DNA from: Escherichia coli
GTDB lineage: Bacteria; Pseudomonadota; Gammaproteobacteria; Enterobacterales; Enterobacteriaceae
Assembly (NCBI RefSeq): GCF_016026235.1
Contig: NZ_CP065613.1
Length of the DNA: 64,000 bases
Strand: one strand, 5' to 3'
The position numbers are program-made. The stretch's first letter is position 1. Each line of letters begins with the position of its first letter. Shown one piece after another: positions 16,901 to 19,900 of this stretch.

Positions 16901-19900
16901 CTCTGCAATTATCAGAACGCCAGTTTTCCCCTTATCTCACGAAAGTCCTCCCTCCTTTATCACGTGCGCGTGCGGAAGCATCGTTTCGCAACAATCACCC
17001 GACATACCGGTACGGCTCAGCCACCGCAATCCCCCCGTTTATCTCCTGACGGTCACATTCCCGATTATTTTTTACGTTTTTCCCCGGTTGTTATGCCGGG
17101 GAAGGTGGTGCGTTGTTTTCATCACCAACGCCGGTTGAGATTAACAACATCCGGAGGAACATTTTCATGAATACCCCAGTTTCACTGATGGATGACCAGA
17201 TGGTCGACATGTCGTTTATCACTCAACTGACCGGCCTGACCGATAAATGGTTTTACAAGCTCATCAAGGATGGTGCCTTTCCTGCCCCCATCAAACTGGG
17301 CCGTAGCTCCCGATGGCTGAAAAGTGAAGTGGAAGCCTGGTTGCAGGCACGTATTACACAGTCCCGTCCGTAATTCCTGACCGTTATCCGTTCAACCGCA
17401 GCAAGGGCATGATCCGGCCCCCGGAGGCATTTTGCTGCGCGCTAAAGGAGAGAATATTATGCAAAAACTTGAAAACCGGTGTGAGCTGCTGCTCATCCAG
17501 CATCAGAAATGGATGACAAGCGTGACGAGGCTTATCGTCGCTCATGGAATGGGGTCTCCGCATCTTCATGGTTATCACCGCCTGACCCTGGCCCACTTTT
17601 TTCTGCCAGAAAAAGGCACCATCATCTCAGTGGCACCACAGGGACTCTATCAGGTCGTCAACCCGGGAACACCACCGTTCATTCCTGCCATTCAGGAAGG
17701 GTTAATGACCAGCATTCAGACCCATGAAATCATGCTGCTTACACATTTTAATCTGGGCGGCGTTTTACTCAGTGAGCTACATCGTCTGGGTGAAAACCGG
17801 CTGGCAAACAGGCTGAACAGCCTGCTCCGGCGTTTCGACGATCGTGATCTCTACCACACGCTGATATGGCTGTGCTGGTATGATCTGATGTGTGCCCACT
17901 CCATGCAGCCCTGGACTGAAGAGTTAAAGCATAAATCACATGCAGAGCTTGAAAACTGGGCTGTGGCGCGCAAACGGGAAAAGAGCGAGCTGGAACTGAT
18001 GATTGACGAGTACCTGTTATACGCCTGTTGATTCATAACACTCCCGGGCCTCCGCACACTTACTTTTCCTCCGTCACCCTCATGCAGAAGCGGGGGGTGA
18101 CGGGCATACTGCGATACCACCACTGAATAATCCGTCTCAGCAACAGGGAACATTATAAGCCAAAGGATTGCTCATGCCATCTTATCAGTTTCTGGCTGTA
18201 GCACGCATTCAGTTCAGGCAGCGTGATATTGTTTATTTCGGAAAGCAGGACATAGGTGGTTTTTCCTTCCTGCACGACAGAGAGCCTGAGTTGAGATGCA
18301 AGAATGTTCAGCAGGACGTTCAGCTTTTTCCTGTTCCTGAACCGGCCCGGGCCACACTGGAGAATATAATTTTTCCTGACACGGGGCGGGCATTCTCCGC
18401 GGCACTCCTCAATGAGCCAGTCGAGCAGCTCCCAGGCGTCCTGCAGCTGCAGTTCAGATTCATCAGGTAACGCAAATAATTTTTTATATTCATCTGTGTA
18501 CCACGAACTTATTACGACAGCAGACGTCATGATATCGGCAGAGATTTTCCCTTCACCCTGACTGAAATACTGCAATAACGCAGCAATTCTCGCAATGTTT
18601 TCTGTTTTTTTTGAAACATGCCCCCGAAACTGGCTTAAGGGTCCGGAAGGAGACAAATCCTGCTCCAGAACATTATAGTGATCAATAAATATTTTTTGCG
18701 CTTCAGGAGAAAAATGCAGACAATAACGTTCATCCTTACTGGATTTTTCAATACTGCCTCTGGCCAGTTCCATTAATCGTTCATGAAATGCCGTTAATGA
18801 TCCTCCCGGGGTCACAGCTCCGTTAATAAAGCGTTTCCCCTGCGTGGTGGCAGGTTTACTGATTAGACAACGGGCAAGAAAACCACTGTCCCTGGCAACA
18901 GAACCTTTTCGCTCCATATATCGGTCAAAAAGACCGGGTTGTACCATGAGGGATAATGTCATTCTGGCATTTTCAATCATCTGTTCGGGTTCATTCTTTC
19001 TGTCCACCGACAATACGGAGCCATCCCACATTTTGTTAATAAAAGGCAGCTCAGACAGGGTATACCCATCAAATATTATACCGGCTTCATCAGACATGAT
19101 ACCCACTGAACGCCACTGACCACAAAGCTGATCTTTAATTGCTGCTGTCGTGGCATCATTAAAAATGAATTTATATCTTACAGGTTTTTCCCCTCTGTTT
19201 TTCTGAAGCGCTTCCAGTTGTCTGAGCGTTTCTGATTCATCCGCGCCTTTGCGGAGTTCTTTATTCAGTTTTGACAACAATGCTTTTTTCTGCGCCTTTA
19301 AAAGCTCTTCCTTATTTTTCCATGTCGTCAGTTCATTTTTGTGTCTGGAATATAACAGCATCTCCTGCTGGTACAGGGGCTCCATTAATAATTTGTCCAC
19401 TGCGGTTTTTCGTTCTCCGGACTCAGCAAGCGTCAGTAAGAAAAGAGAAACCGGCCCCCGTAGTGTATTCAGTCTGCAGACATCAATCAGATTCTGGCAG
19501 ACAAGTGAAACAGCGCCCAGGGCAGATGCTGCCACAAGCCCCAGGGGAGCCTGCGTGATTTGCTGAGCTTCAATAACGGCATCACGAATGAGTGGAGGCA
19601 GCGAACTCAGGGGAAACTCATCAGGATACTGAAAGTATGGCATAATGACCTCACAACACACAGAACATAAAGTACCGCAACTATTGCTACTAATAGCAAA
19701 AATAGCAGCAGAATCAATACAGGATAAAAATTTCTGTCGATTTTCAGATTAAATAATAACCATTCGGTATTTTGTCGCTAAAGAATGTTAGAATGAATCT
19801 GTGCGTCTACGGGCGCTCTCCGGAGCACACATGTTGATTAATTTTCACACAACAACGTGCCAGCAAAAAGCATCATCCAGGGTATTGCAGGTACGGGTTT

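What the first reader, a model, noticed from the sequence alone, without database searches (positions are those of the whole stretch)
17167..19643. alpA / unknown 199-aa gene / convergent DUF3987 (YfjI-like) gene: possible satellite-type regulatory-replication remnant
AlpA-family regulators followed by DUF3987 primase-associated proteins are the hallmark regulatory/replication core of P4-like and phage-inducible chromosomal islands. Here alpA is followed on the same strand by an uncharacterised 199-aa protein, with the DUF3987 gene convergent. No integrase, primase catalytic domain or capsid-redirecting gene is present, so this is probably a remnant, but the 199-aa protein is an unexplained component.
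Basis: partly seen in the sequence, partly recalled or inferred. Interest (0 to 1): 0.4.

Follow-up and report, generated by a model that had tools for sequence, protein, structure and literature searches.

The report
AlpA-partnered orphan gene in island core
The three genes are real and sit in the maintenance core of a common E. coli pathogenicity island (not a decayed phage satellite), and the unexplained gene belongs to an unnamed protein family, with no recognisable fold relative, that follows the regulator gene alpA throughout the Enterobacterales.

Summary
alpA is at 17167-17373 (+), an unknown ORF at 17459-18031 (+; 190 aa from the ATG with a strong ribosome-binding site, not 199 aa), and a convergent YfjI/DUF3987 gene at 18153-19643 (-).

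The window is an E. coli pheV-type pathogenicity island carrying aerobactin, Ag43 and yee modules. Its integrase lies outside the window.

The unknown protein, here called X, is a real gene. dN/dS is 0.04-0.12, and homologues at 24-39% identity occur in at least 14 enterobacterial genera. It matches nothing in Pfam, NCBIfam, PHROGs, PADLOC or PDB sequences. A confident AlphaFold model (pLDDT 88) has no structural neighbour.

In 32 of 34 non-E. coli loci X lies just downstream of a 66-81% identical alpA. A conserved, covarying, terminator-like hairpin always precedes its start codon. None of those loci has DUF3987 within 10 kb, so YfjI is a facultative neighbour.

Within E. coli, X exists as deeply divergent alleles (34-38% identity) beside a nearly invariant alpA.

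Best reading: this is the AlpA-led excision and regulation unit of CP4-57-like islands, with X as a gated accessory factor. The mechanism is inferred, not shown. The satellite-remnant reading is only weakly supported.

The parts
11043..11465 (-). Zn-ribbon gene 2 (DUF7828-type 'putative zinc ribbon protein'), allele type A
   Evidence: tblastn 100% to the RefSeq-annotated protein. Two deep allele types at 31% identity.
11462..11845 (-). Zn-ribbon gene 1
   Evidence: tblastn 98%. Annotated in relatives.
12009..12578 (-). yfjJ-like 'inovirus Gp2 family' gene, an HUH-type Rep-like protein
   Evidence: PF11726 at 164.6 bits, with a weak REP_ORF2-G2P match. The translation shows HYHLML (HUH) and YLAK (YxxK) motifs.
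12910..15676 (-). IS66-family insertion separating yfjJ from the hha remnant and alpA
   Evidence: blastn against L001/L002 shows colinearity interrupted by an IS66-family (ISEc49-like) element. No complete genome covers 80% or more of this arrangement.
16073..16279 (-). hha-like remnant
   Evidence: tblastn 87% over 69 aa. Annotated as partial hha in close relatives.
17167..17373 (+). alpA-family winged-helix regulator or excisionase gene
   Evidence: PF05930; PHROG 'excisionase and transcriptional regulator'; weak PDB sequence matches to an AlpA-family protein and to TorI. It is 66-81% identical across genera. dN/dS 0.05-0.14.
17395..17449 (+). Conserved two-tier hairpin in the leader of X, terminator-like
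   Evidence: Covariance model R1 finds one hit per island, always 15-25 nt upstream of the X ATG. 87.6% of cells are paired against 36-50% in slid controls, and 8 pairs show compensatory change. It is flagged as terminator-like on both strands in L039 and L044. The window copy alone scores only 17.5 bits with fold z = -0.59.
17459..18031 (+).
   Evidence: No Pfam, NCBIfam, PHROG, PADLOC or PDB match. 94 representative clusters in the deep search. AF2 pLDDT 88, pTM 0.87. No fold neighbour. dN/dS 0.04-0.12.
18071..18103 (.). 14-bp inverted repeat in the convergent X/yfjI spacer
   Evidence: strand folding. There is no T-run, and its function is not tested.
18153..19643 (-). yfjI (DUF3987 helicase-family gene), intact and convergent with X
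   Evidence: PF13148 at 318 bits; PHROG 2373 'DNA helicase'; 52% identical to K-12 YfjI. Absent from some E. coli islands and a pseudogene in others.
20944..21856 (+). YeeP/YfjP-type GTPase gene, frameshifted here; the first gene of the rightward island backbone
   Evidence: tblastn matches in two frames, 20983-21300 and 21257-21853.

Best explanation
The region is the regulatory and maintenance core of a CP4-57-like, tRNA-Phe(pheV)-integrated genomic island of E. coli.

Shown:
- alpA and X form a conserved co-directional gene pair found across the Enterobacterales.
- X is a genuine protein under purifying selection. It has an N-terminal long helix, a beta-hairpin and a C-terminal helical bundle. 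It carries the conserved motifs G(V/I)LLSE(C)xRL and LxWLCWxDLM. It has no detectable relative of known function.
- A conserved hairpin always lies 15-25 nt before the X start codon. Outside E. coli it has the form of a weak bidirectional intrinsic terminator.

Inferred:
- AlpA acts, as in CP4-57, KplE1 (TorI) and PICMI, as the excision or directionality factor and switch of the island.
- X has no promoter-like site of its own in the two loci scanned. It would be made only when transcription from the alpA promoter reads through the leader hairpin, so its dose is gated relative to AlpA.
- X has a near-neutral pI and no DNA-binding signature. It probably acts through protein contacts as an accessory or specificity factor of the excision and mobilisation decision.
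- Where present, YfjI (a family shown elsewhere to be a 5'-3' helicase) and YfjJ (an HUH Rep-like protein) would replicate or process the excised circle. They are interchangeable, facultative modules.
For: - Island identity: and PMC11537424.
- Synteny: alpA lies on the same strand directly upstream of X in 32 of 34 non-E. coli loci from at least 14 genera. The same holds in 16 of the 17 annotated E. coli relatives examined.
- X is real: same length and colinear conservation at 24-39% identity; dN/dS 0.04-0.12.
- Orphan status.
- Confident model without neighbours.
- Leader hairpin. It travels with X even when Zn-ribbon genes intervene (L041, L004).
- No sigma-70-like site between the hairpin and X in L039 and L044.
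- AlpA roles in the literature: excision switch in PICMI (PMC10803314); antitermination past an intrinsic terminator in P. aeruginosa (PMC7969949 and PMC9371919); AlpA activity modulated by a small protein partner, YgfB (PMC9998450).
- DUF3987 shown to be a helicase (PMC11724360).
- Related Int-AlpA-Gp2-RadC islands with defence cargo are mobilisable (PMC12595487).
Against: - No experiment or expression data bears on X.
- AlpA is 91-100% identical regardless of X allele type, so the variable surface of X does not co-vary with AlpA. That weakens a specific AlpA-X contact.
- The window's AlpA is only 25% identical to K-12 AlpA. A phmmer search of PDB chains at E <= 1 returned only 8c3t and TorI, so similarity to the P. 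aeruginosa antiterminator AlpA is not shown.
- In E. coli the U-tract of the hairpin is degraded (GGCAUUUUGC), and the window copy is not statistically exceptional on its own.
- The covariation counts come from an alignment fitted to the model.
- In a PICMI, deleting the gene between alpA and prim had no effect on transfer.
Confidence: 0.5

Rival explanations
1. First reader's reading. The trio is the decayed regulatory and replication core of a P4-like, PICI or PICMI-type phage satellite that became embedded in the island. X would be equivalent to the unknown 'early regulon' gene found between alpA and prim in PICMIs.
For: AlpA (PF05930) and DUF3987 (PF13148) are mandatory markers of the PICMI SatelliteFinder model. 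Single unknown genes between alpA and prim occur in many PICMI subfamilies. Both domains are present here. In K-12 CP4-57 the order is alpA, yfjI, yfjJ, all co-directional.
Against: - YfjI is convergent with alpA-X, not downstream in the same operon.
- It has no primase domain.
- 0 of 34 non-E. coli alpA-X loci have a YfjI homologue within 10 kb, and some E. coli islands lack it.
- No capsid, packaging, psu, sid or delta genes are annotated in relatives.
- X is absent from 50,697 phage records apart from one unannotated 3.6-kb entry.
- The flanking backbone is the CP4-57/GI-pheV type.
Confidence: 0.12
2. X is a specificity, immunity or conflict determinant rather than an excision cofactor. Examples would be an allele-specific sensor of a helper element, an exclusion or incompatibility factor between related islands, or an anti-defence or defence accessory.
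For: - X has discrete, ancient alleles (34-38% identity) with sharp homology breakpoints, inside a backbone that is 87-95% identical at the DNA level.
- Each allele is under purifying selection.
- X sits at the edge of variable cargo that is often defence-related: type I RM, BrxR+GmrSD, LlaJI-type RM, BREX, MADS.
- The rightward backbone carries antirestriction and RadC genes.
Against: No PADLOC match for X or three homologues. No enzymatic or sensor domain is recognisable. The cargo next to X is not always defence: VgrG/T6SS and fimbriae also occur. YfjJ and Zn-ribbon 2 show the same allelic pattern, so mosaicism may be a property of the whole module.
Confidence: 0.2
3. X is a replication accessory, such as a helicase loader or Rep cofactor, working with the HUH protein YfjJ and/or YfjI. 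The leader hairpin would be a DNA-level origin or nick site.
For: X lies between alpA and yfjJ in several genera (L032, L035, L048). That is the slot YfjI occupies in K-12 CP4-57. HUH nucleases typically act at hairpins. The hairpin is a perfect DNA inverted repeat, flagged on both strands.
Against: The loop sequence of the hairpin is not conserved. X type does not co-vary with YfjJ type. hhalign finds no relation between X and YfjI. X has no nucleic-acid-binding signature and a pI of about 6-7.
Confidence: 0.12
4. X is a spurious or decaying ORF with no function.
For: It is annotated only as 'hypothetical protein' everywhere.
Against: dN/dS 0.04-0.12. Full-length homologues of the same size at 24-39% identity across genera. 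A strong ribosome-binding site. A confident fold prediction.
Confidence: 0.02

Closest known systems
CP4-57 cryptic prophage of E. coli K-12 (intA-yfjH-alpA-yfjI-yfjJ ... yfjP-yfjQ ... yfjZ-ypjF)
   Same: It has the same gene families: AlpA-family regulator, YfjI/DUF3987, YfjJ, YeeP/YfjP GTPase, DUF932, antirestriction, RadC and CbtA-type toxin. It has the same logic of a tRNA/tmRNA-integrated island with variable, often defensive, cargo between conserved arms.
   Different: K-12 AlpA is only 25% identical. K-12 has no X and no leader hairpin. There yfjI follows alpA co-directionally, whereas here X follows alpA and yfjI is convergent.
GI-pheV of uropathogenic E. coli ('flu module'; Nhu et al. 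2024, PMC11537424)
   Same: The window is this island: shiF-iucABCD-iutA-sat, flu and yee modules next to the gsp/sslE backbone. Relatives are 99.3% identical over the finding.
   Different: That study treats the region at module level. alpA, X and yfjI are not discussed. The window also has a private IS66-family insertion.
PICMI / PICI phage satellites (int-alpA-[unknown]-prim)
   Same: An AlpA switch, a small unknown gene after alpA, and DUF3987 as the replication marker.
   Different: There is no colocalised integrase, no co-directional prim, no primase domain and no packaging functions. The island is tens of kb of virulence cargo. Across genera X is not linked to DUF3987.
tmRNA-integrated Int-AlpA-Gp2-RadC defence islands of Pseudomonas, moved by a jumbo phage (PMC12595487)
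   Same: The core gene set is integrase, AlpA, an inovirus-Gp2-like protein and RadC, with variable defence cargo and no autonomous transfer genes.
   Different: The host clade differs. X homologues were found only in the Enterobacterales. No transfer data exist for the island here.
P. aeruginosa AlpA antitermination system, and its modulation by YgfB
   Same: An AlpA-family protein acting on a unit that contains an intrinsic terminator, and a small protein partner tuning AlpA. This resembles an alpA gene followed by a terminator-like hairpin and a small partner gene.
   Different: Sequence similarity of the window's AlpA to that protein is not shown. X is unrelated to any named family. The resemblance is an analogy, not a tested homology.

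Membership tests
AlpA / Phage_AlpA (PF05930) winged-helix regulators and excisionases | Profile match above the curated threshold | tested here: met
   36.2 bits against a cut-off of 21. PHROG 66/2790 'excisionase and transcriptional regulator'.
AlpA / Phage_AlpA (PF05930) winged-helix regulators and excisionases | Activates integrase expression or acts as a recombination directionality factor | not testable with these tools
   There are only weak sequence matches to TorI (1z4h) and an AlpA-family structure (8c3t). The integrase is outside the window.
YfjI / DUF3987 helicase family | PF13148 domain across the protein | tested here: met
   318 bits, residues 37-397. 52% identical to K-12 YfjI.
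YfjI / DUF3987 helicase family | Canonical Walker A (GxxxxGK[ST]) and Walker B (DE) motifs | tested here: inconclusive
   Read from the alignment. Walker B-like IMSDEAG is present. The Walker A region is AESGERKT, with R in place of the second G, in both this protein and K-12 YfjI.
YfjI / DUF3987 helicase family | Fused or adjacent primase (AEP, PriCT or Toprim) domain, as in satellite prim genes | tested here: not met
   Only DUF3987 was detected. No primase is annotated nearby in relatives.
P4-like satellite | P4 alpha primase-helicase plus psu, delta and sid capsid-redirecting genes with a colocalised integrase | tested here: not met
   None is annotated in close relatives over more than 40 kb. 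No integrase is in the window.
PICI / PICMI satellite | int, alpA and prim colocalised in a small (about 6-15 kb) excisable unit, with packaging functions in PICIs | tested here: not met
   The integrase is at least 9.5 kb away in the shortest relative, with cargo and IS elements between. yfjI is convergent. No terS, ppi or rpp-like genes are annotated. X has no phage-database presence.
CP4-57-like / GI-pheV integrative island backbone | YfjJ, AlpA, YeeP-type GTPase, DUF932, antirestriction, RadC and CbtA/CbeA genes in conserved order | tested here: met
   tblastn map of the window. Annotation of relatives.
CP4-57-like / GI-pheV integrative island backbone | Integration at a tRNA/tmRNA gene with a P4-type tyrosine integrase | tested here: inconclusive
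   Not in the window. Present in relative L001 as tRNA-Phe plus integrase. The window starts inside the island.
Intrinsic (Rho-independent) terminator, for the X leader hairpin | GC-rich stem followed directly by a U-tract | tested here: inconclusive
   The consensus scan criteria are met on both strands in L039 and L044. They are not met in the window itself, which has 4 U. The stem is only 5 bp. Termination activity is untested.

The most novel reading that the evidence does not exclude
X founds a new protein fold family that serves as the allele-specific switch component of the most widespread E. coli pathogenicity- and defence-island backbone. It would be made only on read-through of its leader attenuator. 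It would couple an external cue, such as a helper phage, a plasmid or a competing island, to AlpA-driven excision and mobilisation. That would explain why it persists as discrete ancient alleles beside an invariant AlpA.
Probability: 0.2. Interest if true: 0.7.

Novelty: new variant of a known kind. Interest (0 to 1): 0.4.

Why it matters
alpA of this clade is present in about 3,500 of 5,426 complete E. coli genomes. It sits in the islands that carry aerobactin, Sat, Ag43 and many defence systems. How these non-conjugative, non-phage islands decide to excise and move is poorly understood.

This work adds three things. It identifies a conserved, unnamed AlpA-linked protein with a confident but unmatched fold. 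It identifies a conserved leader hairpin. It shows an allelic structure in E. coli. Together these give a concrete, testable handle on that decision. The work also corrects the assumption that AlpA plus DUF3987 here marks a satellite.

Tried and rejected
- Homology of X to any named family: Pfam, NCBIfam, PHROGs and PADLOC on X and on 21 family members, and a PDB profile search. Nothing was found. The few hits came from chimeric members carrying phosphotriesterase or IS1 fragments.
- The first structure prediction, with a 4-sequence alignment, was unusable at pLDDT 50.7. It was replaced by the 38-sequence run.
- X as a diverged piece of YfjI or YfjH: hhalign and BLAST were negative.
- X and Zn-ribbon-2 as a co-varying cognate pair. 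This looked true in 10 of 10 loci, but L059 combines a type-B-like X with type-A Zn-ribbon 2. YfjJ types also assort independently of X. Rejected as a strict coupling.
- Rfam families in the region: only IS102/IsrC RNA and the ALIL pseudoknot, both unrelated to the finding.
- RNAalifold on the MAFFT spacer alignment recovered only the 5-bp inner stem. The outer stem needed a covariance-model alignment.
- Literature search by protein accession: no paper found.
It was redone with 5 sequences.
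Full report
**1. Observation**

The ORF list, domain scans and sequence confirm three genes.
- alpA lies at 17167-17373 (+). It matches PF05930 at 36.2 bits against a cut-off of 21.
- An ORF follows on the same strand.
- A convergent DUF3987 gene lies at 18153-19643 (-). It matches PF13148 at 318 bits, is intact at 496 aa, and is 52% identical to K-12 YfjI.

The '199-aa' ORF is the mechanical TTG-to-stop reading. The real start is almost certainly ATG 17459, giving 190 aa. 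AAGGAG lies 7 nt upstream, RefSeq relatives annotate 573 nt, and every homologue starts there. I call this protein X.

**2. Where the window comes from**

The 4-kb region is 99.3% identical to many E. coli chromosomes, mostly human isolates.

Annotated relatives show a tRNA-Phe (pheV) island. It carries iha, sat, iutA and iucABCD. Then come two Zn-ribbon genes, an 'inovirus Gp2' (YfjJ) gene, an hha remnant, alpA, X and yfjI. The rightward arm holds a YeeP-type GTPase, Ag43, DUF932, antirestriction, RadC and CbeA/CbtA.

A tblastn map places the same genes in the window. The T2SS/sslE chromosomal backbone follows at about 34 kb. This is the GI-pheV described by Nhu et al. 2024, whose 'flu module' contains the finding.

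The window has no tRNA and no integrase because it begins inside iucD. In a shorter relative the integrase lies 9.5 kb upstream of alpA. The window also carries its own IS66-family insertion at 12910-15676, between yfjJ and alpA.

**3. X is a real, unnamed protein family**
- Pfam, NCBIfam, PHROGs and PADLOC give nothing for X or for 21 family members, apart from hits to foreign pieces of chimeric sequences.
- A word-index search found only close E. coli copies plus one 37%-identical protein of the same length.
- A full profile search of 1.8 billion representatives found 94 clusters, about a dozen of them full-length at 170-200 aa.
- The alignment shows colinear conservation with two motifs, G(V/I)LLSE(C)xRL and LxWLCWxDLM.
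- Within E. coli type-A alleles, dN/dS is 0.04-0.12, the same range as alpA.
- With a 38-sequence alignment AlphaFold2 gives pLDDT 88 and pTM 0.87. The model has a long N-terminal helix, a beta-hairpin, a low-confidence Pro-rich linker and a seven-helix C-terminal bundle.
- The pI is about 6-7 in most members, and no DNA-binding signature is seen.

**4. The conserved unit is alpA-X, not alpA-DUF3987**

Contexts of distant homologues, and 28 loci from one-genome-per-species contigs, were mapped with tblastn. The genera include Lelliottia, Yersinia, Brenneria, Hafnia, Citrobacter, Enterobacter, Serratia, Pectobacterium, Photorhabdus, Salmonella diarizonae, Kluyvera, Mixta, Providencia and Enterobacillus.

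- In 32 of 34 loci an AlpA 66-81% identical to the window's lies on the same strand just upstream of X, which is 24-40% identical. The gap is about 100 nt, or holds one or two Zn-ribbon (DUF7828) genes.
- One of the two exceptions lacks upstream DNA.
- YfjJ lies either before alpA or after X.
- The GTPase-to-CbtA arm is nearby.
- None of the 34 loci has a YfjI homologue within 10 kb.
- In E. coli some islands replace yfjI with an IS1 scar and a 339-aa gene. There homology to the window ends about 17 nt after the X stop codon.
- Downstream of X the cargo varies: type I RM, BrxR+GmrSD+RM, LlaJI-type RM, a VgrG cluster, fimbriae.
- In K-12 CP4-57 a distant AlpA (25% identity) is followed by yfjI and then yfjJ. 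YfjI there occupies the slot X holds elsewhere.

**5. A conserved leader hairpin**

The alpA-X spacers all fold into a two-tier hairpin. The inner stem is UCCGG/CCGGA, and its loop-closing pair switches among G-C, C-G and A-U. An A-rich/U-rich middle tier and an outer stem follow. The 3' arm, GGUUUUCUGCUGCCUGUCAUU, is strongly conserved.

A covariance model built from 13 sequences finds exactly one copy per island. It always lies 15-25 nt before the X ATG. This holds even when a Zn-ribbon gene or a small ORF separates alpA from X, so the element belongs to X. It also precedes the divergent type-B X of E. coli and is absent from K-12 CP4-57.

On the model-fitted alignment 87.6% of cells pair, against 36-50% for slid controls. 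Eight pairs show compensatory change. That alignment leans towards the structure.

Outside E. coli the inner stem plus U-run meets simple terminator criteria on both strands. No promoter-like site lies between it and X. In the window itself the U-run is weaker, and the copy is unremarkable on its own. There is no Rfam match.

**6. Allelic structure in E. coli**

alpA of this clade occurs in about 3,495 of 5,426 complete genomes. The window's X type occurs in 1,031. The other islands carry a 200-202-aa X only 34-38% identical.

Against such an island, DNA identity is 87-95% on both sides. AlpA is 93% identical at the protein level, YfjJ 92% and YfjI 88%. Similarity vanishes from 17438 to about 17936/18234.

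YfjJ has two types at 21% identity. Zn-ribbon 2 has two types at 31% identity. These are also allelic and assort independently of X. An apparent X/Zn-ribbon-2 coupling is broken by L059. AlpA does not co-vary with X type.

**7. Interpretation**

Shown:
- The identity of the island.
- The reality of X and its orphan status.
- The alpA-X synteny.
- The leader hairpin.
- The facultative status of yfjI.

Inferred:
- AlpA is the island's excision switch. This is by analogy with CP4-57 (from general knowledge), TorI, and PICMI, where alpA expression alone triggers excision.
- X is expressed by read-through of its leader hairpin.
- X acts through protein contacts as an accessory or specificity factor.

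P. aeruginosa AlpA bypasses an intrinsic terminator and is tuned by a small protein, YgfB. That offers a working analogy, but sequence similarity to that AlpA was not shown.

YfjI belongs to a family shown to be a 5'-3' helicase. YfjJ carries HUH and YxxK motifs. Together they are plausible replication or processing functions for the excised circle.

**8. Rivals**
- The satellite-remnant reading has literature support for its markers. It fails on gene order, the missing primase and packaging genes, the missing linkage of X to DUF3987, and the absence of X from phage records.
- A specificity or conflict role for X is suggested by the allelic pattern and by the neighbouring defence cargo. It has no direct support.
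- A replication-accessory role is suggested only by gene position.
- A spurious ORF is excluded.

**9. Verdict**

The region is ordinary in that it is a known, widely annotated island segment. It is not ordinary in that it contains an unnamed, structurally unmatched protein family. That family is tightly linked to AlpA, has its own conserved leader element, and shows striking allelic diversity. The interest is moderate. It is a new variant of a known kind of system.

Noticed in passing
window 17395-17449; also L004, L006, L015, L019-L053 just upstream of each X gene: A conserved two-tier hairpin always lies 15-25 nt before the X start codon, one copy per island, with compensatory base changes. 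Outside E. coli it looks like a weak bidirectional intrinsic terminator. It has no Rfam family.
   Followed up: yes
window 17438-18234, compared with L051-L053 and L056-L059: X exists in E. coli as deeply divergent alleles: 190 aa against 200-202 aa, at 34-38% identity. The DNA on either side is 87-95% identical, with sharp homology breakpoints. AlpA stays 91-100% identical.
   Followed up: yes
window 11043-11465 and 12009-12578; L020, L022, L054, L051-L059: Zn-ribbon gene 2 (31% identity between types) and YfjJ (21% identity between the 189-aa and 199-aa types) are also allelic. They assort independently of the X type, so the whole core is a mosaic of alternative cassettes.
   Followed up: partly
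window 12009-12578 (-): The YfjJ translation shows an HUH motif (KKHYHLMLLV) and a YxxK motif (ADYLAKESTK), as in rolling-circle Rep or relaxase-type nucleases. No cognate nick site was identified.
   Followed up: no
window 18153-19643 (-), residues about 70-80 of YfjI: The Walker A region reads AESGERKT, with R where the second G of GxxxxGK[ST] is expected. K-12 YfjI reads AESGERKS. Walker B (SDEAG) is kept. The helicase may be atypical or inactive.
   Followed up: no
window 12910-15676: An IS66-family element is inserted between yfjJ and the hha remnant. No complete E. coli genome in the collection reproduces this arrangement over 80% or more of a 12-kb query.
   Followed up: partly
window 20944-21856: The YeeP/YfjP-type GTPase gene matches in two reading frames overlapping at about 21257-21300. 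It is therefore frameshifted here, while intact in close relatives.
   Followed up: no
window 21960-22163 and 10073-10189: Rfam hits: IS102/IsrC RNA just upstream of the Ag43 (flu) gene at 252 bits, and an ALIL frameshift pseudoknot of an IS3-family element at 120 bits.
   Followed up: no
window 25300-50000: The yee module and the adjacent T2SS (gsp)/sslE chromosomal region are at most about 95.5% identical to any complete genome covering them. The alpA-X-yfjI segment is 99.3% identical to many genomes. The window is therefore a mosaic of differently related segments.
   Followed up: no
L004 11187-20546; L006 6742-12576; L016/L017 9394-12597; L020 1-4169; L022 147-3228: The cargo flanking the yfjJ/alpA/X core in relatives is often anti-phage defence: BrxR+GmrSD+type I RM, type I RM, LlaJI/AAA_5 RM, BREX and MADS. 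The core borders a defence-gene hotspot.
   Followed up: partly
window 18071-18103: A 14-bp GC-rich inverted repeat (CCGTCACCCTC...GGGGGGTGACGG) lies in the convergent X/yfjI spacer with no T-run. It may be a non-canonical bidirectional terminator.
   Followed up: no
L023 and L037 (MAGs labelled Collinsella sp. and Bacillota bacterium): These contigs carry E. coli-like island sequence. L023 has X at 97% identity. L037 has X at 35% identity and DUF932 at 94%. They are probably mis-binned Enterobacterales DNA in metagenome-assembled genomes.
   Followed up: no
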